Source of the DNA: a virus
Strand: one strand, 5' to 3'
Virus genome (UHGV): UHGV-0220213
Length of the DNA: 37,467 nucleotides
Positions 8 to 35,740 of this stretch are shown here, one piece after another. Under the pieces are notes generated by a model. That model saw nothing but the letters and a program-made list of their open reading frames with translations. It ran no database searches and was not told the DNA's origin. The position numbers were made by a program, and so were the translations under genes. Within the stretch, counting starts at the first letter, position 1. Every line of letters starts with the position of its first letter.

Positions 8-1996
8 ATGAAAGAATGGTATACAGCAAAAGAGTTGCTCGGTTTGGCAGGTTTACCAAAGCAAGCCACTAACATTACACGTAAGGCACAAAGAGAAGGC
101 TGGGAGTTCAGGCAGGTTGCAGGGACTAAAGGTGTATCATTTGAATTCAATATCAAATCATTCCCTGTCGCATTACGTGCTGAAATTCTGTTGCAACAAG
201 GGAGAATTGAAACAAGCCTGGGCCGTTTTGAAATCGCCCGCCCCACGCTGGAAGCCCATGATTATGATCGTGAGGTGCTGTGGAGCAAATGGGATAAAGC
301 CAGCGATTCCCAGCGCAGACTTGCTGAAAAATGGTTGCCTGCGGTTCAGGCTGCAGACGAAATGCTGAACCAGGGGATTTCAACGAAAACGGCTTTTGCG
401 ACCGTTGCAGGGCATTACCAGGTCAGCGCATCCACTTTGCGGGACAAGTATTACCAGGTACAGAAGTTTGCGAAGCCTGACTGGGCGGCTGCACTTGTTG
501 ATGGACGTGGTGCATCCCGTCGCAATGTTCACAAAAGTGAATTTGACGAGGATGCCTGGCAGTTTCTGATTGCAGATTATCTGCGACCGGAAAAACCCGC
601 CTTCCGCAAATGTTATGAGCGTCTGGAACTGGCAGCCCGCGAGCATGGCTGGAGTATTCCCTCCCGTGCCACGGCCTTTCGCCGGATTCAGCAACTGGAC
701 GAGGCAATGGTTGTTGCCTGTCGTGAAGGTGAACATGCACTGATGCATCTGATACCGGCACAGCAGCGAACTGTGGAACACCTGGACGCCATGCAGTGGA
801 TCAACGGCGACGGTTATCTGCATAACGTCTTTGTACGCTGGTTTAACGGTGATGTGATCCGTCCGAAAACATGGTTCTGGCAGGATGTGAAAACCCGAAA
901 AATTCTGGGCTGGCGCTGCGATGTGAGCGAGAACATTGATTCAATTCGCCTCTCGTTCATGGATGTTGTGACTCGCTACGGTATCCCGGAGGATTTTCAC
1001 ATCACCATTGATAACACCCGTGGTGCTGCGAATAAATGGCTGACGGGAGGCGCGCCCAATCGCTACCGCTTTAAGGTGAAAGAAGACGATCCAAAGGGAT
1101 TGTTTTTACTGATGGGTGCGAAAATGCACTGGACAAGCGTTGTTGCCGGTAAAGGCTGGGGCCAGGCAAAACCTGTTGAACGTGCTTTCGGTGTTGGTGG
1201 GCTTGAGGAATACGTTGATAAGCATCCGGCACTGGCTGGCGCATATACGGGGCCAAATCCGCAGGCAAAACCTGATAACTATGGCAACCGCGCTGTTGAT
1301 GCAGAGCTGTTTCTGAAAACCCTTGCCGAAGGTGTGGCGATGTTCAATGCCAGAACAGGCCGTGAAACAGAAATGTGCGGGGGCAAACTCTCGTTTGATG
1401 ATGTTTTCGAGCGTGAATACGCCAGAACGATTGTGCGTAAGCCAACCGAAGAACAAAAACGGATGCTGTTACTGCCTGCCGAGGCGGTGAACGTTTCACG
1501 CAAAGGCGAGTTTACGCTTAAAGTTGGCGGCTCCCTTAAAGGCGCGAAAAACGTTTATTACAACATGGCATTAATGAATGCCGGCGTGAAAAAAGTTGTG
1601 GTCAGGTTTGATCCGCAGCAGCTACACAGCACGGTTTATTGTTACACCCTGGACGGTCGGTTTATCTGTGAAGCGGAATGTCTGGCACCTGTTGCATTTA
1701 ATGATGCTGCGGCAGGCCGTGAATATCGCCGCCGCCAGAAACAACTGAAATCTGCAACTAAAGCAGCCATTAAGGCGCAGAAACAAATGGACGCGCTGGA
1801 AGTTGCTGAACTGCTGCCGCAGATAGCCGAACCAGCAGCACCAGAATCACGAATTGTTGGTATTTTCCGGCCTTCCGGTAATACGGAACGGGTGAAGAAT
1901 CAGGAGCGTGATGATGAATACGAAACTGAGCGTGATGAATATCTGAATCATTCGCTGGATATTCTGGAACAGAACAGACGTAAAAAAGCCATTTAA
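8..1996 (+). CDS. A: DDE transposase MuA (662 aa)
   Basis: Translation matches recalled Mu transposase A along most of its length; the N-terminal ~60 aa diverge from canonical Mu (D108-like). First gene of the window. Confidence 0.93.
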
Positions 1997-2988: not shown

Positions 2989-3216
2989 ATGATGGCCCGA
3001 AATATAAAAATGGCAACGGATGCGCAGAATTGGTTACAGGCGCGCGGGAGTCATGTAAATGAATCATATCTCGGCGTGGCGCGTCCGATTCTTGAAATCA
3101 CTTACCCACCGGTGGAACTGGTAAAAAACGCGGTCAGAATTATGGAGCATAAGTCCGGGGTGGCCCGTTCTGTATGGACGGCCCGTCTTAATGGTTGCCA
3201 GATTATCTGGAGATAA
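2989..3216 (+). CDS. kil: Kil-like host cell division inhibitor (75 aa)
   Basis: Position immediately after B, size about 74 aa as Mu kil; SD AAGGAGAAG upstream. Confidence 0.7.
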
Positions 3217-3218
3217 CG

Positions 3219-3449
3219 ATGTGTATTAAAGCTGAAAAATATATTGAATGGGTTAAACACTGTCAGTGCCACGGGGTGCCGCTGACGACATATAAATGCC
3301 CCGGATGCGGTGAACAGATTATGACGCAATGCTCACCCGAAAAGGAAATTCGGGATTCCCTGACATGTTGTCCGTGGTGCAGCGCAGTTTTCTTTAAGCA
3401 GGTAAAAGGCGCGAAGGTAAAAGCCAGCGCAGTTATTCAGAATCAATAA
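3219..3449 (+). CDS. Small early protein with CxxC...CxxC zinc-ribbon-like motifs (Mu gp6-like)
   Basis: ORF frame 3195-3449; the ATG at 3219 follows the kil stop; two CPxC pairs. Confidence 0.6.
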   Translation: MCIKAEKYIEWVKHCQCHGVPLTTYKCPGCGEQIMTQCSPEKEIRDSLTCCPWCSAVFFKQVKGAKVKASAVIQNQ

Positions 3450-3460
3450 GGTGAAACAAA

Positions 3461-3730
3461 ATGGCAAAAGTAATCTTTGAATTTAACAATACAAGAAATA
3501 TTGAGTTTCAGGAAAATGGAGGTTTTGCCGTAAATATGAATGTGCGACTGGAAGAATCCTCACCTGAGGACCAGACCGGGCCACATGATGTAATGGCAGG
3601 CATCATCAAGAGCATGGCTCCTGAAATCATTAAAAAAGCGACCGAGGAGTTGTTGAAATCAGCCAGGGAGCTTGGGCTGGAAGCTGAGGGGAAATTATTC
3701 AGCTATAACCCGAATACAGCCAGACATTAA
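3461..3730 (+). CDS. Early-region hypothetical protein (89 aa)
   Basis: ORF with upstream SD; early-operon position. Confidence 0.6.
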   Translation: MAKVIFEFNNTRNIEFQENGGFAVNMNVRLEESSPEDQTGPHDVMAGIIKSMAPEIIKKATEELLKSARELGLEAEGKLFSYNPNTARH

Positions 3731-3750
3731 TTCGCAAAGGAACGCTGACA

Positions 3751-4170
3751 ATGAACGTCAAGACCCGAAATGAAATTCAGGCATTAATCCGAATTCAGGA
3801 ACGCAATAACAACGGTGGTGAATTACGCGAGTTTATTTGCGCCCGGAAAGTTGATGATTGTGGTGAAAAGACTTACCTGATTGCTTTCGACCATTACAGC
3901 ATCTGTGCACGTTATTGCGGCGAAAGCATATCCCGCGCCATTGCATTTGGCGGTGCGTTCAACGTGGATTTATGGGAGTACGTCATGGACCGGGAATACA
4001 TCTGCGCATCAGACCCTGAGGCCCGTGAAATGTGGCAGCGTATCTGGCGCGATTACCGGTTAATGGCAAAAGGCTGGGCGCGCTGCTGTTATTCCTCGCT
4101 TGCCCTGAAAGCGGTTCAGTTATCGCTGCGGCATATTCAGGCATCACTGCGCGAGCCTCTGCTGTACTGA
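3751..4170 (+). CDS. Early-region hypothetical protein (139 aa), Cys-rich
   Basis: ORF with SD AAAGGAA upstream; tightly packed in the early operon. Confidence 0.6.
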   Translation: MNVKTRNEIQALIRIQERNNNGGELREFICARKVDDCGEKTYLIAFDHYSICARYCGESISRAIAFGGAFNVDLWEYVMDREYICASDPEAREMWQRIWRDYRLMAKGWARCCYSSLALKAVQLSLRHIQASLREPLLY

Positions 4171-4470
4171 ATGGTGACTGACATGAAGTGTAATCGTAAG
4201 CGCTGGTCACGCGAAGACCGGGAATTTATCGAAGCCAACGTCGGGAAAATGACCATTGAAGAAATGGCGGAAAAACTGAAAGTCGCCACAACCGCCCTCC
4301 GGGCACATGCCAGAAGGCACGGAATATCATTGTGTGTATACCGAATCAGTGAACACGACAAATATTTATGTCGTGAACTTTATAAAGAAGGACTGGATAT
4401 TCATGTCATTGCCCGAAAGATGGAATTAAGCAATCGTGCTGTATCCAGCATTGTATACAGCGGATATTAA
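4171..4470 (+). CDS. Early-region small protein with predicted HTH segments (99 aa)
   Basis: Starts right at the upstream stop (alternative ATG at 4183); helix-turn-helix-like stretch MTIEEMAEKLKVATTALRAHARRHG. Confidence 0.55.
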   Translation: MVTDMKCNRKRWSREDREFIEANVGKMTIEEMAEKLKVATTALRAHARRHGISLCVYRISEHDKYLCRELYKEGLDIHVIARKMELSNRAVSSIVYSGY

Positions 4471-4489
4471 TTAACAGGAGCTTTAATTT

Positions 4490-5014
4490 ATGGCTAAACC
4501 AGCAAAACGTATCAAAAGTGCCGCAGCGGCTTATGTGCCACAAAACCGCGATGCGGTGATTACTGATATTAAACGCATCGGGGATTTACAGCGCGAAGCA
4601 TCACGTCTGGAAACGGAAATGAATGATGCCATCGCGGAAATTACGGAGAAATTTGCGGCCCGGATTGCACCGATTAAAACCGATATTGAAACCCTTTCAA
4701 AAGGCGTTCAGGGATGGTGTGAAGCGAACCGCGACGAACTGACGAACGGCGGCAAAGTGAAAACGGCAAATCTTGTCACCGGTGATGTATCGTGGCGGGT
4801 CCGTCCACCATCAGTAAGTATTCGTGGTATGGATGCAGTGATGGAAACGCTGGAGCGTCTTGGCCTGCAACGCTTTATTCGCACGAAGCAGGAAATCAAC
4901 AAGGAAGCGATTTTACTGGAACCGAAAGCGGTCGCAGGTGTTGCCGGAATTACGGTTAAATCGGGAATTGAAGATTTTTCCATTATTCCATTTGAACAGG
5001 AAGCCGGTATTTAA
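4490..5014 (+). CDS. gam: Gam host-nuclease inhibitor, DNA-end-binding (174 aa)
   Basis: 174 aa, matches recalled Mu Gam sequence (MAKPAKRIKSAAAAYVPQNRDAVITDIKRIG...). Confidence 0.9.
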   Translation: MAKPAKRIKSAAAAYVPQNRDAVITDIKRIGDLQREASRLETEMNDAIAEITEKFAARIAPIKTDIETLSKGVQGWCEANRDELTNGGKVKTANLVTGDVSWRVRPPSVSIRGMDAVMETLERLGLQRFIRTKQEINKEAILLEPKAVAGVAGITVKSGIEDFSIIPFEQEAGI

Positions 5015-5112
5015 TACCACCATTAATATTTAATTAATTCACATTCTTTTAATTATGGCGCGATGCGTCAGGGGATTGCTCGCGCCTGAAACAGATTACT
5101 GAGGAATAAAAC

Positions 5113-5643
5113 ATGGTTGATGCAAAAATTCTGAATGGTGTCAGCACATTATTACGGGCTTACGGACGCCTGACCTGCGGAGTTCTGGCTGAAAAAATGA
5201 AGATGCCTCCCTCATCAATGGTGTATTTCCTGCGTGATGCGGTTGATGCCGGCGTTCTCACCGAATGCAACGGATTTTATGACGTTCCGCGCCCGCGTCC
5301 GACGCCGCCTGTAAGACGAAACGCAACTGAGCAGCCTGCTGTTGATGATGCGGTGTGGTGCAACTGGCGTCGCTCATTACCCTGGGTGGAAGGTAATACC
5401 ATCCCCGCGCTGGCAAAAGAGTTTGCGACGGGCGTGCTGACCTGTGAATCCGTTCACATCGTTGCAGAACTGGACAACAGAATGTGCGAACAGGGAATGC
5501 CCCGTTTTGTGATGGCTTATATCGATATCCGGCTGGGGCGTTTTATTTGCAGTTCAAGCGCCTGGAATATCACCGACCATGTACTGCGTTATCTCATTCT
5601 TGATTGTTCTCCGGCTCCCACAGCGGTGCAGGAGGTGGCGTGA
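5113..5643 (+). CDS. Early semi-essential region protein (176 aa)
   Basis: ORF with SD GAGGAA upstream; stop overlaps the next start (TGATG). Confidence 0.6.
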   Translation: MVDAKILNGVSTLLRAYGRLTCGVLAEKMKMPPSSMVYFLRDAVDAGVLTECNGFYDVPRPRPTPPVRRNATEQPAVDDAVWCNWRRSLPWVEGNTIPALAKEFATGVLTCESVHIVAELDNRMCEQGMPRFVMAYIDIRLGRFICSSSAWNITDHVLRYLILDCSPAPTAVQEVA

Positions 5644-6173
5644 TGTTTTTTAAAACGTCAAATCCCGCAGCACTGCTGGCATGGGACCAGTTTATGGCGG
5701 ACTGCCTGAAACTACGCGAAGAAGCCCGCCATCTTGATAAGGTTCTGGGTTGTGGTTGCCGGTCAGTATTCAGCACAGGTATTGGTGGGCGTCATTTTCA
5801 TGGCGTGAATTTTCCGGGGAATGAGCGACCTTTCTCGCCGGAGTTGTGGACTGTACAACGCTCCGCATCAGGTAACAGTTGCAGGCCAAGAACATCGCGC
5901 ATTCCTGCACATCTGCGGGAGCAGTCAAAAGAGCTGGCGAAAATATGGCAGGAGAATATTCCGGTCACTTATGCCCGTACTGACGCTCTCTTACCCGCAC
6001 TGGGACTGGATTTCAGCGCAACAATATTCGGCCCGCTCCGGTGGTTCCGTGTTGGTGATGTGATTTACGTCATGACAGGGATGACTCCCGCACAGGGCCG
6101 CATGACTGAAATCCTTTCTGACGAATTTATCCGGGCGCAAAAACAGGCGGAGGTAAACAATGGAAAACAATGA
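5643..6173 (+). CDS. Early semi-essential region protein (about 176 aa)
   Basis: ATG at 5643 overlaps the upstream stop; same frame as track ORF 5604-6173. Confidence 0.55.
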   Translation: MFFKTSNPAALLAWDQFMADCLKLREEARHLDKVLGCGCRSVFSTGIGGRHFHGVNFPGNERPFSPELWTVQRSASGNSCRPRTSRIPAHLREQSKELAKIWQENIPVTYARTDALLPALGLDFSATIFGPLRWFRVGDVIYVMTGMTPAQGRMTEILSDEFIRAQKQAEVNNGKQ

Positions 6174-6342
6174 AACATCGTATTCGTGGCTGGGGAAATT
6201 TACCACGGTGAAACAGGAATGCCCGACCTGCGGTAATGAATCCCCTGAATATCTGAAAGAGTGCCCTCATTGTGGCGGGCAGAAATGCAACCACTGCGAT
6301 ATGGGCGACGACACGGCGTGCATGAATTGTGAAGGTGAGTGA
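6160..6342 (+). CDS. Small Cys-rich zinc-ribbon protein (60 aa, four CxxC pairs)
   Basis: Strong SD GGAGGT six nt upstream of the ATG; CPTCG...CPHCG...CNHCD...CMNCE. Confidence 0.6.
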   Translation: MENNETSYSWLGKFTTVKQECPTCGNESPEYLKECPHCGGQKCNHCDMGDDTACMNCEGE

Positions 6343-6343
6343 T

Positions 6344-6655
6344 ATGAATAATGGTGTATTTTCAAAATCAGAAGAGCTTGCCGCCCTGCTGATTGCCGGT
6401 GGTTTGCCGAAAAAAGAAGTGCATGACTTTGTGAATTTTGTATATGAGCCGTCTCATGAAAAAGCTATTGATGAAGTCATGGCGTACCGGTTTGGCATTA
6501 TTGCTGAGTCACTGAGTCCTCACTGGATTATTGAAAATCTCCGCACTATTGCTGATGGTAACGATAAAGTGGCGGCTGTCGCCGCCCTTGATGTGCTGCA
6601 ACGTATGAACCGGGAACTATTCAATCCCGAGTTTCTTTTTAAGAAACGAGGTTAA
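6344..6655 (+). CDS. Early-region hypothetical protein (about 103 aa)
   Basis: SD AGGTGA five nt upstream of the ATG at 6344; last + strand ORF before the coding gap. Confidence 0.55.
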   Translation: MNNGVFSKSEELAALLIAGGLPKKEVHDFVNFVYEPSHEKAIDEVMAYRFGIIAESLSPHWIIENLRTIADGNDKVAAVAALDVLQRMNRELFNPEFLFKKRG

Positions 6656-7033
6656 CCACTGTTTGCCGACGTCTGTTACGAGCGTCATCGGGGCGTCGGC
6701 AAGGTCCTGTTTTATGCGCTCAAGAATGGGTTTTTGATGTAGTGCTTTCGCAAAATCATGACCATCTTGTGTAAGTCTGACACTGGTGCCTGAATATGAA
6801 TATCCGAGGCTTGTTGGGGTGAGACCAATGCTTTTTGCGGTGCCTGTTTCCAGATATCTGTTGCTGATAAAACCATTTTCAACCAGCAACAGAAGATGGA
6901 AAACCAGCTTCTGATGGCTGTCGCTGTGCCGCTGAGAACGATCCCAGCCGACATCTTCCAGTCGAATGAATGCGGTGTCGGCCTCCAGAAAAACATCAAA
7001 TATTCTGGCTATCTCGTCATAATCAATTTTCAT
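6617..7033 (-). CDS. Opposite-strand hypothetical protein (138 aa), function unknown
   Basis: Only ORF filling the ~400 bp + strand coding gap between 6655 and gemA; SD AAGGAA about 8 nt upstream of its ATG on the minus strand; balanced, protein-like composition. Confidence 0.5.
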   Translation of the reverse strand: MKIDYDEIARIFDVFLEADTAFIRLEDVGWDRSQRHSDSHQKLVFHLLLLVENGFISNRYLETGTAKSIGLTPTSLGYSYSGTSVRLTQDGHDFAKALHQKPILERIKQDLADAPMTLVTDVGKQWLTSFLKKKLGIE

Positions 7034-8001: not shown

Positions 8002-8007
8002 ACAGTA

Positions 8008-8031
8008 AAGCCGGTTAATCCGGCTTTTTTT
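8008..8031 (+). terminator. Rho-independent terminator ending the early operon (Mu t9.2 equivalent)
   Basis: Stem AAGCCGG / CCGGCTT with loop TTAAT, then a run of 7 T. Confidence 0.8.
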
Positions 8032-10196: not shown

Positions 10197-10398
10197 TGCA
10201 GAACTGACGGAAGCAACGCCCGTTCCGCCCACGCCACAGCCCCTGACGTGGGGAGCATCCCTTCTCTGGAATGCTGACCTGTTGATGGCGCTCGGGCAGT
10301 GCAACCGCGACAAGGCATCAGTCCGGGAACAGGAGACCCGAAGGAAAGAAATTTATGAACGAAGACCAGAACCGGGCGGTGGCGCTGCTGCTCGCTGA
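10057..10398 (+). CDS. o-spanin, outer-membrane lipoprotein spanin subunit (about 113 aa)
   Basis: Lipobox LLTGC after a signal peptide; starts inside the 3' end of the i-spanin gene in another frame; Pro-rich periplasmic part. Confidence 0.65.
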   Translation: MMQNKKLQPPLPVTIAALVLCLPLLLTGCGNSKNAPVPSVVILPETDAELTEATPVPPTPQPLTWGASLLWNADLLMALGQCNRDKASVREQETRRKEIYERRPEPGGGAAAR

Positions 10399-10549
10399 AC
10401 TCTGGCAGGGGGATACCCGTGATATTCCCCGCCCGGCGGCGTATGACCCGCCTGTATTGTGTGCCGGTTGCGGTCGTGAGCTGCGGCCTGATGTGCTGAG
10501 ACAGCAGCCGATGGCGAACTACTGCCACTGGTGCCGTGGAGCAGAATAA
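10355..10549 (+). CDS. Small protein with CxxC...CxxC (64 aa, Mu gp24-like position)
   Basis: ORF containing CAGCG and CHWCRG motifs. Confidence 0.5.
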   Translation: MNEDQNRAVALLLAELWQGDTRDIPRPAAYDPPVLCAGCGRELRPDVLRQQPMANYCHWCRGAE

Positions 10550-22961: not shown

Positions 22962-25034
22962 ATGACCGGGAAACGCTTAAAGGCGTCTGTCATTATTGAT
23001 CTTAATGGCAATCTTTCCCGGCGTTCCCGCCAGTATTCGAACCAGATAAACGCCCTGTCCCGTAGCGGTCAAAGTTCCCTTCGAGCCCTGCGTATGGAGG
23101 TTGTGCGCGTTTCTGGTGCCATTGACAGAATGGGTTCACTGTCAACCCGTACATTCCGAATGCTGTCAGCCGGGGCGCTGGGTATCGCTGGCGTGGGTTA
23201 CACCGCCAATAAACTGTTTATTGGTGCAGCCGCCCAGCGTGAGCAGCAGATCATCGCCATGAACTCGCTGTATCACGGCGATAAGGTCAGAGCGCAGGCC
23301 ATGATGGCCTGGGCGAAGCAGAACGCGAAGGACACCACGTGGGGGCTGAGTGGTGTTCTTGATGAGATCCGTTCGTCGAAAGGCTTCGGCATGACGGATG
23401 AACAGACGAAACAGTTCATCACCATGTTGCAGGATCAGGGGGCCATGCACGGCTGGGATTTACCCACTGCACAGGGTGCCTCACTGCAACTGAAACAGAT
23501 GTTTGCCCGCCAGCAAATCACAGCGGCGGATGCCAACCTGCTGACCGGTTACGGTATCAACGTTTATCAGGCGCTGGCTGATGCAACGGGAACGGACGTT
23601 AAAAAAATCCGTGATCTGGGTACAAAGGGCAAGCTGGGCATGAAATCCATTCTGACGGTATTCAGAACGCTGTCAGAACAGTCAAAAGGTGCACAGGCCA
23701 GTGCGATGAACTCCTGGGACGGGATGTTCGCCCAGATGGAAGCCAACCTGCTTGAATTTCGCATAAAGGTGGCAAACAGCGGCCCCTTTGAAGAAATCAA
23801 GAACGAGATGCGCCGGGTGCTTAACTGGCACGACATGGCGGATAAATCCGGGGAACTTGATGCACTGGCAGAAAACATTGGTCAGAAATTTCTGACCACA
23901 TTCAGAACGGTAAAAATCGCGGCGCAGGAATTATGGCGCTGGCTGAAACCGGGTAAAGATGCGCTGGCATGGGTTGACCAGAATATTGTCAGCCTGAAAA
24001 AACTGGCTGCTGTTCTGGTGTCTGTCTGGCTTGCCAATAAAGCCCTGAGAGCAGGCTGGGCCGTGGCAAAACCCTCATGGCAGGTTGCCAGTTATCCGTT
24101 TAAAACCGGGCGTCGTATGTGGCGCTGGATGCGAAACCGCAAACGTGGGCAGGCAGGTCTGCCGGTCCCGGATGCCATGACGTCTGAGACGCTGTTGCAG
24201 GGTATCGGCATTCAGCGTGTGTTTGTCATCAACTGGCCCCGTGGATTGGGTGGCTACGGGAGTGGCGGCGGTCGTCGCGGACGGAGCGGCGGAAGAATGG
24301 CCCCGCTGTTACCCCGCCAGCCGTTATTGCTGTCCGGGCCACAGCCGCTGGCATTACCTGCACCACGCCCTGTACTGGCATTACCCCCACCCGGCGTACC
24401 GGTAACGGCACGGCCTGCACCATTACCTTTACCCGGTAAATCAGGTCTTCTGAGCAGGCTTGCAGGCAGTGCTGCCGGGCAACTGGTTACAGGAACGGTC
24501 GGAAAGCTGGCTGATGCCGGGCGTGCTGTTGGCGGGTGGTTTTCCGGTATCGGAAACAAACTTGCAGGCAGTGCGATCGGTCGGGTTGTGACAAAAGGTG
24601 CCGGGGCGCTGGGCTGGATGGGGAAAGGTGCCGGTCGTGCGTTGTCACGTCTGGGTGGCCCGGTAATGGGGGCGCTCCAGCTTGCCCCCGTCCTGATGGA
24701 TGAGCAGGCGTCAACCCATGAAAAAGCAGGCGCAATTGGCAGTACAGCCGGTGCATGGCTCGGCGGTGCCGTTGGCAGCCTTGCCGGACCGCTGGGTACG
24801 GTTGCCGGTGCCACGCTGGGCAGTGTCGCCGGGGAGTATCTGGGCGGCTTTGTAACCGACCTGTATCAGAAATGGACGGCCACGGATAAGGAACCGCAGG
24901 AACAAAAAGTGAATGCGGAAGCCTCGCTGCGCGTCGAACTCGGCGAGGGGTTACGTCTGACCAGTTCCCGCGTCACCGAGGATGGTATGGGGCTGAATAT
25001 TTACGCGGGCGATAACTACATTACGGGCTGGTAA
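22962..25034 (+). CDS. Tail tape measure protein (690 aa)
   Basis: Large protein after the chaperone; Gly/Ala-rich low-complexity C-terminal third. Confidence 0.85.
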
Positions 25035-34467: not shown

Positions 34468-34656
34468 ATGAAATCAATTCGCTGTAAAAACTGCAACAAA
34501 CTGTTATTTAAGGCGGATTCCTTTGATCACATTGAAATCAGGTGTCCGCGTTGCAAACGTCACATCATAATGCTGAATGCCTGCGAGCATCCCACGGAGA
34601 AACATTGTGGGAAAAGAGAAAAAATCACGCATTCTGACGAAACCGTGCGTTATTGA
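34468..34656 (+). CDS. com: Com, zinc-finger translational activator of mom (62 aa)
   Basis: 62 aa with CxxC...CxxC (CKNC...CPRC); overlaps the 5' end of mom. Confidence 0.9.
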
Positions 34657-35320
34657 GTATGAAGGCCAGATTGTTGGCTATGGTTCAAAGGAACTGCGCG
34701 TTGAAACCATATCCTGTTGGCTGGCCCGCACAATTATTCAGACAAAGCACTATTCCCGCCGTTTTGTGAATAACTCTTACCTTCATCTGGGGGTATTCAG
34801 CGGACGCGATCTGGTTGGCGTTCTCCAGTGGGGATATGCCCTTAACCCCAACTCAGGTCGTCGTGTCGTGCTTGAAACGGATAACCGGGGCTATATGGAG
34901 TTGAACCGCATGTGGCTACACGACGACATGCCCCGCAACTCTGAATCACGGGCCATCAGCTACGCGCTGAAAGTTATCAGATTACTGTATCCGTCAGTGG
35001 AGTGGGTTCAGTCCTTTGCTGACGAACGCTGCGGACGCGCAGGCGTTGTGTATCAGGCGTCGAATTTTGATTTTATTGGCAGCCATGAAAGCACGTTCTA
35101 CGAGCTGGATGGTGAGTGGTATCACGAGATAACGATGAACGCGATTAAGCGAGGTGGACAACGAGGCGTGTATTTACGGGCTAATAAAGAGCGTGCCGTG
35201 GTGCACAAATTTAATCAGTATCGCTACATCAGATTCCTGAACAAGCGAGCAAGGAAGCGGCTAAATACCAAGCTATTCAGGGTTCAGCCATACCCTAAGA
35301 GATCCCCATGGAATGAATAA
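34577..35320 (+). CDS. mom: Mom DNA-modification (anti-restriction) enzyme; exact start uncertain
   Basis: Last phage gene, reading frame overlaps the 3' end of com; in-frame candidate starts ATG 34577 and GTG 34607. Confidence 0.8.
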
Positions 35321-35349: not shown

Positions 35350-35417
35350 TGAAGCGCGAAAGCTAAAGTTTTCGCATTTATCGTGAAACGCTTTCGCGTT
35401 TTTCGTGCGCCGCTTCA
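35341..35417. repeat. Mu right end (attR) with three transposase-binding repeats (R3, R2, R1)
   Basis: TGTTTCATTTGAAGCGCGAAAG (35341-35362), then two opposite-orientation copies ending ...CGTGCGCCGCTTCA at 35417. Confidence 0.85.
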
Positions 35418-35740
35418 GCGAACACAATACACAATGCAGAAACCAGTAGCGTATTGAGCAGGCCGACAATAAAAACGCGTCCGTAAGTGTCGCCTTGCTG
35501 ATAATCAATCAAATGCTGAACGATGCCAAAACCGGCCCCGCGGTCAAGAAAAGCAAATCCTGATGTTATGCCGCGATTACTGAGATTCGTTACAGTGTTG
35601 TGAAATAACCAACCAATAATGCCGACAACAGCAACAACGGCAAGGATCTGGAATAACCAGGCGCGAACCGTAGGGTTGGCAAAAGAGAGTGAGCCTTTAA
35701 CGGTTGAGCGGCGATGAGACATAGAAACCTCGGAAAGCAT
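35418..35740 (-). pseudogene. yhdX: 5' fragment of an amino-acid ABC transporter permease gene (yhdX-like) interrupted by the prophage
   Basis: Minus-strand ORF starts at 35740 with TM-rich permease N-terminus and runs into the phage end, terminating in phage DNA at 35378; only about 107 codons are host-encoded. Confidence 0.7.

What the first reader, a model, noticed from the sequence alone, without database searches (positions are those of the whole stretch)
3219..6342. Several small Cys-rich zinc-ribbon-like proteins in the semi-essential early region
ORFs 3219-3449 (CPGCG...CPWC) and 6160-6342 (four CxxC pairs in 60 aa) are small putative metal-binding proteins; 3751-4170 is Cys-rich and 4171-4470 carries HTH-like segments. 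Such early products in Mu-like phages are largely uncharacterised and are plausible host-takeover or anti-defence factors, but I see no specific signature assigning them to a known family. A similar CxxC protein sits in the lysis cluster (10355-10549).
Basis: inference. Interest (0 to 1): 0.35.

Follow-up and report, generated by a model that had tools for sequence, protein, structure and literature searches.

The report
Phage Mu's uncharacterised small zinc-binding proteins
The flagged ORFs are real, conserved genes of a Mu/D108-type phage (Mu gp6, gp8, gp9, gp13 and a late zinc-finger ORF) that have been catalogued for decades with no known function; two are convincing zinc-binding mini-proteins from phage-only families, so the finding is correct but not new.

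Summary
The window is a Muvirus (Mu/D108-type) prophage. The flagged ORFs are 94-100% identical to long-annotated Mu/D108 genes:
- 3219-3449 is gp6 (E5).
- 3751-4170 is gp8 (E7).
- 4171-4470 is gp9 (E8).
- 6160-6342 is gp13 (E14).
- 10355-10549 is D108 gene 24.

The cysteine patterns are exactly as described and far exceed chance.

gp6 belongs to a small phage-only family (phrog_3786 / PF26833). The family also occurs in Chi-like and Pseudomonas phages and in a Shewanella Mu-like phage. A confident model (pLDDT 90) shows a helix plus a C4 zinc ribbon. It has no solved structural relative.

gp13 is an acidic 8-Cys module, C..C-x(6-22)-C..C-x(3-5)-C..CDxGD-x(2-4)-C..C. At least 84 protein clusters from proteobacterial phages carry it. 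It nearly always sits at the extreme C-terminus, either alone or fused to varied N-terminal domains.

The late ORF is unrelated to both. It looks like a truncated DksA/TraR-type zinc finger.

No characterised family, defence model or solved structure matches any of them, and the function remains unknown. My best guess is that they are zinc-stabilised binding modules acting as dispensable early accessory factors. gp13 probably targets a conserved DNA-handling protein.

Verdict: observation confirmed, already known as uncharacterised genes, modest interest.

The parts
3219..3449 (+). Mu gp6 (formerly E5), 76 aa. N-terminal helix plus C4 zinc ribbon; predicted ligands are C27, C30, C51 and C54.
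   Evidence: It is 100% identical to Mu gp6. It matches phrog_3786 at E 1e-40. Cluster representatives carry a precomputed PF26833 hit. The AF2 model has pLDDT 90: helix 3-17 plus 5 strands. C27, P28, D46, C51, P52 and C54 are invariant across 14 family members, and C30 is present in 13 of 14.
3209..3212 (+). Shine-Dalgarno GGAG for gp6. The kil stop codon is at 3214-3216, so the two genes are tightly coupled.
   Evidence: Read directly from the sequence.
3751..4170 (+). Mu gp8 (formerly E7), 139 aa, 7 Cys, no CxxC motif, function unknown.
   Evidence: It is 94% identical to Mu gp8 and is found only in Muvirus records. It matches phrog_3690, function unknown. Pfam, NCBIfam and PDB give no hit. 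dN/dS is 0.19-0.28.
4171..4470 (+). Mu gp9 (formerly E8), 99 aa, basic, probably a helix-turn-helix DNA-binding protein.
   Evidence: It matches phrog_323, 'transcriptional regulator, D5-like', at E 6e-29. RefSeq gives Mup09 the same name. Pfam and NCBIfam hits to HTH and sigma-70 region 4 families are below threshold, at residues about 22-53 and 69-95.
6160..6342 (+). Mu gp13 (formerly E14), 60 aa, pI 4.5. A variable N-terminus is followed by a 40-aa acidic module with 8 Cys, predicted to bind two zinc ions.
   Evidence: It is 100% identical to D108 and SfMu gp13 and 96.7% to Mu. It matches phrog_5584 at E 2.7e-44. Thirteen positions are invariant, including all 8 Cys. Among the representatives retrieved, 84 carry the full module.
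6147..6151 (+). Shine-Dalgarno GGAGG for gp13. The gp13 start overlaps the end of gp12 by 14 nt, and the gp13 stop at 6340-6342 abuts the next ATG at 6344.
   Evidence: Read directly from the sequence.
8007..8027 (+). Terminator-like hairpin after mor. All the early ORFs above lie in one transcription unit that ends here.
   Evidence: The consensus scan finds no + strand promoter-like or terminator-like site between 2900 and 7600. This is a consensus match only.
10355..10549 (+). Late-operon ORF (D108 gene 24), 64 aa, with a CxxC-17-CxxC zinc finger of DksA/TraR type. It is not related to gp6 or gp13.
   Evidence: It is 100% identical to the Mu and D108 ORF. It matches phrog_3260, function unknown. 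The syntenic gene in Shewanella phage MuM16-2 passes Pfam PF01258 (28.5 bits against a cutoff of 24.9). That gene aligns to the window ORF at 38% identity over 29 aa, pairwise E 1e-4.
34468..34656 (+). Com, the one characterised zinc-finger protein of this phage, included as a comparator.
   Evidence: The ORF and its translation are. It gives no alignment to gp6, gp13 or the 10355 ORF.

Best explanation
These are genuine, translated accessory genes of a Mu/D108-type transposable phage.

gp6 and gp13 are two unrelated, phage-restricted, non-enzymatic mini-proteins. In each, the fold is held together by zinc: one C4 site in gp6 and two sites from four CxxC pairs in gp13. They are made from the single early transcript, together with the transposition proteins, Kil and Gam.

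I propose that they act as small binding modules that modulate another macromolecule rather than catalysing anything.

gp13 is strongly acidic in every family member (8-14 Asp/Glu against 1-7 Lys/Arg in 15 of 16 aligned sequences; one has 25 against 5), so it should bind a protein and not DNA. The most likely target is a conserved, basic, nucleic-acid-handling host or phage protein, such as a nuclease, a recombination or replication factor, or a topoisomerase. The module is a portable C-terminal domain that other phages attach to various N-terminal domains.

gp6 is a helix plus a classical zinc ribbon, mildly basic in Mu. It could bind either nucleic acid or a protein.

gp9 is a small HTH DNA-binding protein. 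gp8 has no assignable activity.

The ORF at 10355-10549 is a separate case: a cut-down DksA/TraR-type zinc finger in the late lysis/packaging operon.

What is shown: the identity of the genes, that they are coding, the conservation of the Cys ligands, the extent of each family, the gp6 fold prediction, and the genomic contexts.

What is inferred: zinc binding itself, a binding role rather than a catalytic one, and the class of target.
For: Identity:
- The region is 95-97% identical in DNA to D108, Mu and the Yersinia vB_YpM phages.

Coding and function:
- Shine-Dalgarno sites precede both main ORFs.
- dN/dS is 0.1-0.43.
- gp6 and gp13 are present in all Muvirus records and in roughly as many complete E. 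coli genomes as Mu-type gam.

Zinc sites:
- All 8 Cys of gp13 are invariant, together with G25, K42, D47, G49 and D50, in a diverse alignment.
- In gp6, C27, C51 and C54 are invariant and C30 is present in 13 of 14 sequences.
- The four Cys of gp6 outside the two knuckles (2, 15, 17, 38) are not conserved.

gp6 fold:
- The AF2 model has pLDDT 90, with the CxxC knuckles between strands, as in zinc ribbons.
- Its only structural relatives are uncharacterised phage proteins, with TM 0.7-0.87.

gp13 family:
- The exhaustive profile search gave 259 representatives at E <= 1e-3.
- Among the ~160 sequences retrieved, 84 have the full module, 76 of those within 12 residues of the C-terminus. Asp/Glu make up 52% of the residues in the short tail after the module.
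- Of the 84, 48 are stand-alone proteins of 70 aa or less, and 20 are longer than 100 aa with different N-terminal domains.

Conserved target:
- In a second group of Mu-like prophages, the gp13 core is 86-92% identical to the window's. The flanking gam, gp11 and gp12 are only 52-68% identical.

Context in unrelated phages. The gp13-like gene sits in DNA-metabolism modules:
- next to a DUF2800 PD-(D/E)XK nuclease, an SSB and a DNA polymerase in Klebsiella phage Kpn BU9;
- overlapping the start of an Rv2179c-like 3'-5' exonuclease gene in a KplE1-like prophage;
- downstream of genes for an AAA_24 ATPase and a RuvC-like protein in L071;
- 1.1 kb downstream of gam in Mu itself.

No enzymatic family matches any of the proteins.
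Against: - Nothing here measures zinc, binding or phenotype.
- The gp13 model is poor (pLDDT 55), so its fold and ligand pairing are unknown. Eight Cys could in principle hold an Fe-S cluster.
- One abundant Salmonella cluster of gp6 (P0019, 74 member sequences) has Tyr in place of C30. The C4 site is therefore not absolutely required.
- Association with nuclease and replication genes is loose. Early regions of phages are full of such genes, and two loci place the gp13-like ORF near terminase and portal genes instead (L067, L070).
- gp12 can be swapped out while gp13 stays (L021-L027), so there is no fixed partner gene to point to a target.
- The literature held here has no functional data on these ORFs.
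Confidence: 0.55

Rival explanations
1. Dedicated anti-defence proteins. gp6 and/or gp13 would inhibit a host immune system, in the way Lar or Ral alleviate restriction or anti-CRISPRs block Cas proteins, by binding and blocking the effector.
For: - They are small, early, dispensable-region genes with no housekeeping homology.
- The gp6 family is scattered across unrelated phage groups (Muvirus, Casjensviridae, Pseudomonas phages KPP23, KPP25 and PMBT3, and a Shewanella Mu-like phage). That is typical of mobile accessory genes.
- gp6 evolves fairly fast, with dN/dS 0.43 and two alleles at 78% identity.
- gp13 is an acidic mini-protein like many nuclease inhibitors.
- gp13 gives a weak, far sub-threshold hit to the Lar family, 14.9 bits against a cutoff of 39.6.
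Against: - gp13 and gp6 are kept in essentially every Muvirus genome rather than varying in presence.
- The gp13 core is more conserved than its neighbours and has 13 invariant positions across Gamma- and Betaproteobacterial prophages. That fits a conserved cellular target better than a variable defence system.
- The polymorphic gene in this region is gp7, not the zinc proteins.
- No library of anti-defence families was available, so this explanation is untested rather than excluded.
Confidence: 0.2
2. Nucleic-acid-binding regulators of phage gene expression. gp6 in particular would act like Mu Com, a zinc-finger translational activator, or like the Ogr/Delta zinc-finger transcription activators or the zinc ribbons of the transcription machinery. 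It would tune early or middle expression or transposition.
For: - gp6 has a zinc-ribbon topology.
- Its nearest, non-significant, sequence neighbours in the PDB are RNA polymerase subunit P/Rpo12 and zinc-ribbon RNA-binding proteins.
- One source names a homologue 'transcription elongation factor Elf1', and one phage record names another 'RNA polymerase 7 kDa-like subunit'.
- Mu gp6 is basic, pI 8.6.
- The same phage uses a zinc finger (Com) for translational control.
Against: - All those matches are below significance and are driven by the CxxC knuckles (E 0.03-1). Foldseek finds no PDB relative (best E about 1).
- pI in the gp6 family ranges from 5.7 to 9.3, so a basic surface is not conserved.
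- gp13 is far too acidic for nucleic-acid binding.
- There is no similarity to Com.
Confidence: 0.15
3. The ORFs are not functional genes: chance reading frames or decaying remnants in a poorly conserved region.
For: - They are short and lie in a region known for small uncharacterised ORFs.
- RefSeq often leaves gp6 unannotated in E. coli genomes.
- Two other Cys-rich ORFs in the window are indeed spurious.
Against: - Strong Shine-Dalgarno sites precede both ORFs.
- dN/dS is below 1.
- Homologues at 30-60% identity in unrelated phages keep every ligand Cys.
- A confident fold is predicted for gp6.
- The four-CxxC pattern never arose in 100 shuffles.
Confidence: 0.02

Closest known systems
Bacteriophage Mu / D108 gp6 (E5), gp8 (E7), gp9 (E8), gp13 (E14) and D108 gene 24
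   Same: They are the same genes in the same order, at 94-100% amino-acid identity.
   Different: There is nothing material in these ORFs. The window differs from Mu elsewhere: the gp7 allele, an extra ORF at 6344-6655, and a different minus-strand ORF at 6617-7033.
DksA/TraR C4 zinc-finger family (Pfam PF01258; F-plasmid TraR, lambda Orf73), compared with ORF 10355-10549 only
   Same: The CxxC-17-CxxC spacing is identical to TraR's (PMC9239242). The gene has the same position in the lysis-to-terminase interval as a bona fide PF01258 protein in a Shewanella Mu-like phage, and the two align over the finger.
   Different: There is no Pfam hit. NCBIfam DksA_like scores only 15.3 bits against a cutoff of 105. 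The N-terminus reads E3-x-x-N6-x-A8 instead of DxxDxA. Only 4 residues follow the last Cys, so the C-terminal RNAP-binding helix is missing. No PDB sequence match is found, even at E 10.
DnaJ cysteine-rich domain (Pfam PF00684, four CxxCxGxG repeats, two zinc ions), compared with gp13
   Same: Both have four CxxC pairs in about 40-60 residues and are expected to bind two zinc ions. It is the best Pfam hit for gp13 (E 0.0015).
   Different: The score is 19.2 bits against a cutoff of 32.7. None of the four repeats keeps the full CxGxG glycines. The spacing between pairs is much shorter (10, 4 and 7 residues). The signature KCxxCDxGD and the acidic tail are absent from DnaJ.
Lar family restriction-alleviation proteins (NCBIfam TIGR03655), compared with gp13
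   Same: Both are small prophage-encoded Cys-containing proteins of 55-65 aa from an early or accessory region.
   Different: The score is 14.9 bits against a cutoff of 39.6, with no independent matched stretch. Homology is not supported.
Mu Com (zinc-finger translational activator of mom)
   Same: It is a small CxxC...CxxC protein from the same phage, present in this window at 34468-34656.
   Different: It gives no detectable alignment to gp6, gp13 or the 10355 ORF. It is a basic RNA-binding protein encoded at the far right end of the genome (from my own knowledge of Mu).
E. coli YacG (gyrase inhibitor: a C4 zinc finger with an acidic tail). An analogy from memory; not tested here.
   Same: Both are tiny zinc-stabilised proteins with an acidic C-terminal tail. 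YacG blocks the DNA-binding surface of a DNA enzyme, which is the kind of mechanism proposed for gp13.
   Different: YacG has four Cys and one zinc, and no sequence relationship was shown here. It is a functional analogy only.

Membership tests
Mu gp6 family (phrog_3786 / Pfam PF26833) | Significant full-length match to the family profile | tested here: met
   phrog_3786 matches at E 1.1e-40 over residues 1-76. All cluster representatives of 52 aa or more, including one 99% identical to the window protein, carry a precomputed PF26833.1 hit. PF26833 is not in the local Pfam copy, so I could not rescore it or read its name.
Mu gp6 family (phrog_3786 / PF26833) | Conserved C-P-x-C ... D ... C-P-x-C core after an N-terminal helix | tested here: met
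   C27, P28, D46, C51, P52 and C54 are invariant, and C30 is present in 13 of 14 sequences. The AF2 model has helix 3-17 plus five strands.
Mu gp13 family (phrog_5584; 8-Cys 'KCxxCDxGD' module) | Significant match to the family profile | tested here: met
   phrog_5584 matches at E 2.7e-44 over residues 1-60.
Mu gp13 family (phrog_5584) | Four CxxC pairs plus K42, D47, G49 and D50, at the extreme C-terminus, with an acidic tail | tested here: met
   These are invariant columns in a 16-sequence alignment. Of the ~160 representatives retrieved, 84 match the motif and 76 of those are at the C-terminus.
DnaJ cysteine-rich domain (PF00684), for gp13 | Pfam gathering score; four CxxCxGxG repeats | tested here: not met
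   The score is 19.2 bits against 32.7. The repeats read CPTCGNES, CPHCGGQK, CNHCDMGD and CMNCEGE, so the GxG glycines are not kept.
Lar restriction-alleviation family (TIGR03655), for gp13 | NCBIfam cutoff score | tested here: not met
   The score is 14.9 bits against 39.6.
FmdB / CxxC_CxxC_SSSS zinc ribbon (TIGR02605), for gp6 | NCBIfam cutoff score | tested here: not met
   The score is 18 bits against 31.3.
DksA/TraR C4 zinc finger (PF01258), for ORF 10355-10549 | CxxC-17-CxxC zinc motif | tested here: met
   The Cys are at 36, 39, 57 and 60, with 17 residues between the pairs. The motif is as defined in PMC9239242.
DksA/TraR C4 zinc finger (PF01258), for ORF 10355-10549 | Profile score above the curated cutoff | tested here: not met
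   There is no PF01258 hit at E <= 0.1. NCBIfam DksA_like scores 15.3 bits against 105.
DksA/TraR C4 zinc finger (PF01258), for ORF 10355-10549 | N-terminal DxxDxA motif and a C-terminal RNAP-binding helix (PMC9239242) | tested here: not met
   The N-terminus is M-N-E-D-Q-N-R-A, that is E3, N6 and A8. The protein ends 4 residues after C60.
DksA/TraR C4 zinc finger (PF01258), for ORF 10355-10549 | Positional equivalence with a bona fide member in a related phage | tested here: met
   Shewanella phage MuM16-2 p23 lies between the lysis genes and the small terminase gene. It scores 28.5 bits on PF01258 against a cutoff of 24.9, and it aligns with the window ORF at E 1e-4.
HTH transcriptional regulators (phrog_323, 'D5-like'), for gp9 | Profile match; recognisable HTH | tested here: inconclusive
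   phrog_323 matches at E 6e-29 but covers only positions 142-244 of a 319-position profile. All Pfam and NCBIfam HTH hits are below cutoff.
Known anti-phage defence proteins (PADLOC) | Match to any defence-system model | tested here: not met
   gp6, gp7, gp8, gp11, gp12, gp13, the 6344 ORF, the 6617 ORF and the 10355 ORF give no hit. gp9 gives one weak HTH-type hit at 15.6 bits.
Known anti-defence proteins (anti-restriction, anti-CRISPR and similar) | Match to a curated anti-defence family | not testable with these tools
   No anti-defence profile library was available. PHROGs gives only 'unknown function'.

The most novel reading that the evidence does not exclude
The gp13 module (C..C-x(6-22)-C..C-x(3-5)-C..CDxGD-x(2-4)-C..C plus an acidic tail) is an unrecognised, portable two-zinc domain. 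Phages of Gamma- and Betaproteobacteria would use it, alone or attached to different N-terminal domains, to dock onto and inhibit one conserved host DNA-end-processing or DNA-repair enzyme. On this reading, Mu carries a second anti-nuclease function besides Gam. gp6 would similarly define a new zinc-ribbon fold with a host target.
Probability: 0.12. Interest if true: 0.6.

Novelty: already known. Interest (0 to 1): 0.22.

Why it matters
Mu is a model phage. Yet most of the 4-5 kb between its transposition genes and its middle-gene regulator still has no assigned function.

This analysis shows that two of these ORFs are conserved zinc mini-proteins. Their families reach well beyond Mu: gp6 into Chi-like and Pseudomonas phages, and gp13 into at least 84 clusters of proteobacterial phage proteins.

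That turns 'hypothetical protein' into specific, cheap experiments: zinc stoichiometry, partner pull-downs and in-frame deletions. If gp13 proves to target a conserved DNA-handling enzyme, it would add a new small inhibitor domain to the phage toolkit.

As it stands, nothing here changes what is known about Mu.

Tried and rejected
1. gp12-gp13 fusion or frameshift idea. gp13 matches the C-terminus of a 231-position PHROG, phrog_6418, and overlaps gp12 by 14 nt. I rejected the idea for three reasons:
- gp12 matches only phrog_2314.
- The protein upstream of the Klebsiella homologue is unrelated to gp12.
- gp12 is replaced in several Muvirus prophages that keep gp13.

2. Solved-structure relatives. 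Sequence and profile searches of the PDB for gp6, gp8, gp9, gp13 and the 10355 ORF gave only non-significant hits anchored on Cys. Foldseek of the gp6 model against the PDB gave nothing better than E about 1.

3. gp13 structure. AF2 with a shallow 12-sequence alignment gave pLDDT 55. I did not run a fold search on it because the result would be meaningless.

4. Conserved neighbour analysis for gp13-like genes in 35 viral loci. No single partner gene is conserved; there is only a loose association with nuclease and replication modules.

5. Literature. Seven searches found no functional work on these ORFs. They found only a general statement that the SEE region encodes small uncharacterised proteins (PMC8705779) and the TraR-homologue paper used for the membership test (PMC9239242). 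Harshey's Mu review (PMC4486318) is not held.

6. Homology among the phage's own zinc proteins (gp6, gp13, the 10355 ORF and Com). There is none beyond short stretches anchored on the CxxC motifs.

7. Multi-stretch hits of the gp13 profile to long repetitive zinc-ribbon proteins (P0031 and others). These were discounted because only the generic first two CxxC pairs match.

Full report
**What the window is**

DNA from 2900-7100 matches D108, Mu, SfMu and the Yersinia vB_YpM phages at 93-97% identity. The ORF order is MuA, MuB, Kil, gp6-gp9, Gam, gp11-gp13, GemA, Mor, C, Lys. This is the Mu map as annotated in NC_000929.

The flagged ORFs map as follows:
- 3219-3449 is gp6 (old name E5).
- 3751-4170 is gp8 (E7).
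- 4171-4470 is gp9 (E8).
- 6160-6342 is gp13 (E14).
- 10355-10549 is the ORF numbered 24 in D108.

Amino-acid identities to Mu/D108 are 94-100%. The stretch between B and gemA is the 'semi-essential early' (SEE) region. One paper describes it as coding for small proteins with uncharacterised functions (PMC8705779).

A consensus scan finds no + strand promoter-like or terminator-like site between 2900 and 7600. It finds a terminator-like hairpin at 8007-8027, just after mor. This is consistent with one early transcript covering all these ORFs.

**Checking the observation**

- gp6 has 9 Cys in 76 residues, including C27-x-x-C30 and C51-x-x-C54.
- gp13 has 8 Cys in 60 residues, as four CxxC pairs.
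- gp8 has 7 Cys in 139 residues and no CxxC.
- The 10355 ORF has CxxC-17-CxxC.

Long ORFs in the window average 0.97% Cys. Shuffled windows give 0.32 small ORFs with two or more CxxC, against six observed, and never one with four. Two of the six are artefacts: one antisense to gene A and one out of frame inside the tape-measure gene. The other four are gp6, gp13, the 10355 ORF and Com.

The genes are real:
- Good Shine-Dalgarno sites precede both main ORFs.
- dN/dS is 0.43 for gp6 against its most diverged Muvirus allele and about 0.1 for gp13.
- Both genes are in every Muvirus record of the phage collection.
- They occur in 38 (gp6) and 49 (gp13) of 5,426 complete E. coli genomes. Mu-type gam at 90% identity or more occurs in about 44.

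**gp6**

No Pfam, NCBIfam or PDB sequence match reaches significance. The protein belongs to phrog_3786 (E 1e-40). Its cluster representatives carry a precomputed Pfam PF26833 hit. That family is absent from the local Pfam copy.

The family is small, with 16 clusters at 90% identity, but it is not confined to Mu. Relatives at 30-40% identity occur in:
- Chi-like Casjensviridae (Chi gp72);
- Serratia phage Smarc5;
- Pseudomonas phages SS2019XI, CRPAP1904, KPP25, KPP23 and PMBT3;
- the SEE region of a Shewanella Mu-like phage.

In KPP23 and PMBT3 the gp6 unit is the C-terminal domain of a longer protein of unknown function.

Across 14 family members, C27, P28, D46, C51, P52 and C54 are invariant. 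C30 is present in 13. The other four Cys of Mu gp6 are not conserved. One abundant Salmonella cluster has Tyr at position 30.

AlphaFold2 on this alignment gives a confident model (pLDDT 90): helix 3-17 followed by five strands. The two CxxC knuckles lie between strands 1/2 and 3/4, which is a zinc-ribbon arrangement.

Foldseek finds no solved relative (best E about 1, TM 0.37 or less). In the viral predicted-structure library it finds only uncharacterised phage proteins (TM 0.7-0.87).

**gp13**

No curated family matches. The best Pfam hit is the DnaJ cysteine-rich domain at 19.2 bits against a cutoff of 32.7. The best NCBIfam hit is Lar at 14.9 bits against 39.6. It belongs to phrog_5584.

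A word-indexed search found only 14 clusters. An exhaustive profile search of 1.84 billion representatives found 259 at E <= 1e-3.

Many of these hits are long repetitive zinc-ribbon proteins that match only the generic first two CxxC pairs. Of the ~160 sequences I could retrieve, 84 carry the whole motif C..C-x(6-22)-C..C-x(3-5)-C..C[DN]xG[DN]-x(2-4)-C..C. For these 84:
- 76 have the motif within 12 residues of the C-terminus.
- Asp/Glu make up 52% of the residues in the short tail after the module.
- 48 are stand-alone proteins of 70 aa or less.
- 20 are longer than 100 aa and have several different N-terminal domains. One of these scores 26.6 bits, just under the cutoff of 27, on Pfam 'phage ProQ C-terminal-like'.

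In a diverse 16-sequence alignment, all eight Cys plus G25, K42, D47, G49 and D50 are invariant. The module is acidic in every member.

Species-representative genomes with the motif span Gamma- and Betaproteobacteria, including Buttiauxella, Thauera, Rubrivivax, Hydrogenophaga and Methylovulum.

In a second group of Mu-like prophages, the gp13 core is 86-92% identical to the window's. The flanking gam, gp11 and gp12 are only 52-68% identical. The module is therefore under unusually strong constraint.

gp12 is not an obligate partner. It is replaced in several Muvirus prophages that keep gp13. The upstream gene in Klebsiella phage Kpn BU9 is unrelated to it.

Outside Mu, the gp13-like gene tends to sit in DNA-metabolism modules:
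- beside a DUF2800 PD-(D/E)XK nuclease, an SSB and a DNA polymerase;
- overlapping an Rv2179c-like 3'-5' exonuclease gene next to xis/int;
- downstream of genes for an AAA_24 ATPase and a RuvC-like protein.

The association is loose, and two loci place it by terminase and portal genes instead.

The AF2 model from a shallow alignment was poor (pLDDT 55), so I did not search with it.

**gp8 and gp9**

gp8 is found only in Muvirus, at 90% identity or more, so conservation of its Cys cannot be tested. It matches only phrog_3690, function unknown.

gp9 matches phrog_323, 'transcriptional regulator, D5-like' (E 6e-29). It has two sub-threshold HTH-like segments.

**The ORF at 10355-10549**

It lies in the late lysis/packaging operon, after the spanin genes. 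It is unrelated to gp6, gp13 and Com.

In the Shewanella Mu-like phage MuM16-2, the gene at the same position is a bona fide DksA/TraR zinc finger (PF01258, 28.5 bits against 24.9). The two proteins align over the finger at 38% identity across 29 residues, with a pairwise E of 1e-4.

The window ORF has TraR's CxxC-17-CxxC spacing. It lacks the DxxDxA motif, reading E3, N6 and A8 instead. It ends four residues after the last Cys, so it has no C-terminal helix. Both features matter for TraR function (PMC9239242). I therefore call it TraR-like in its finger only, and not a family member.

**Explanation**

The evidence supports the following:
- Both proteins are real, selected genes.
- Their conserved residues are almost entirely metal ligands and a few flanking positions.
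- They are too small and too motif-poor to be enzymes.
- They are carried as mobile accessory genes by unrelated phages.

My best reading is that they are zinc-stabilised binding modules made early in infection.

For gp13, I favour a conserved basic DNA- or RNA-handling protein as the target. Three observations lead there: the uniformly acidic surface, the extreme conservation, and the company of nuclease and replication genes. E. coli YacG, a zinc-finger gyrase inhibitor, is a functional analogy from memory and was not tested here.

For gp6 the ligand class is open, because pI across the family ranges from 5.7 to 9.3.

The anti-defence reading is not excluded, since no anti-defence library was available. 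The conservation pattern does not favour it for gp13. The gene in this stretch that does behave like an arms-race locus is gp7. It exists in three allele types that share little beyond the first five or six residues, between flanks that are 97% identical or more.

**Verdict**

The objects are long-known Mu ORFs in catalogued families of unknown function, so the finding is not novel.

What this analysis adds:
- the true extent of both families;
- a confident gp6 fold with no solved relative;
- the definition of the gp13 module;
- the separate, TraR-like nature of the late ORF.

Noticed in passing
window 6617-7033 (- strand): A 138-aa ORF runs convergent with the early operon, at the spot where Mu has a different 88-aa minus-strand gene (gp15). 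It matches phrog_585, function unknown, and gives no Pfam or PADLOC hit. The best relative in the phage collection is only 34% identical. It may be a cargo gene expressed from the prophage.
   Followed up: partly
window 3461-3730 (gp7): gp7 is polymorphic. There are three allele types of 87-89 aa: the window type, the YpM_5 type at about 40% identity, and the Mu type, which is unalignable beyond MAKVI. The flanking genes are 97% identical or more. There is a weak, sub-threshold RraB-like Pfam hit (16.9 bits against 23.3). This is the pattern expected of an arms-race gene.
   Followed up: partly
loci L021, L022, L024-L027 (Muvirus prophages), position of gp12: gp12 is replaced by unrelated sequence of similar length, while gp11 and gp13 are retained. 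The first four or so residues of gp13 change with the upstream gene.
   Followed up: partly
window 6344-6655: A 103-aa ORF (phrog_1988, function unknown) follows gp13 directly. It is shared with Yersinia phage vB_YpM_5 and many prophages, but it was not aligned with Mu gp14 at this position.
   Followed up: no
E. coli RefSeq genomes, e.g. NZ_CP151071.1, NC_017635.1: RefSeq annotation frequently leaves the gp6 ORF uncalled ('none' under a 98-100% match) although the gene is intact. Strain 22KM0354 has three matching places, which suggests several Mu-type prophage copies.
   Followed up: no
window 24536-24703 and 1622-1786 (-): These two further Cys-rich ORFs with CxxC motifs are spurious. The first is out of frame inside the tape-measure gene (22962-25034) and the second is antisense to gene A.
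   Followed up: yes
window 34468-35320 and beyond about 35.4 kb: Com (identical to the Mu Com sequence as I recall it from memory; not compared against a record) and Mom are present. Sequence after about 35.4 kb carries a minus-strand membrane-protein-like ORF (35378-35740) and looks like host DNA, so the window spans the right end of a prophage.
   Followed up: no
proteins P0053, P0091, P0131, P0157: This is a recurrent fusion of the gp13-type 8-Cys module to an N-terminal domain of about 110 aa. In P0053 that domain scores 26.6 bits, just under the cutoff of 27, on Pfam PF24203 'phage ProQ C-terminal-like domain'.
   Followed up: partly
locus L051 3781-3975 (KplE1-like prophage): Another small Cys-rich ORF (64 aa, phrog_10154, function unknown) lies immediately upstream of the gp13-like gene. 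Small cysteine proteins therefore cluster there as well.
   Followed up: no
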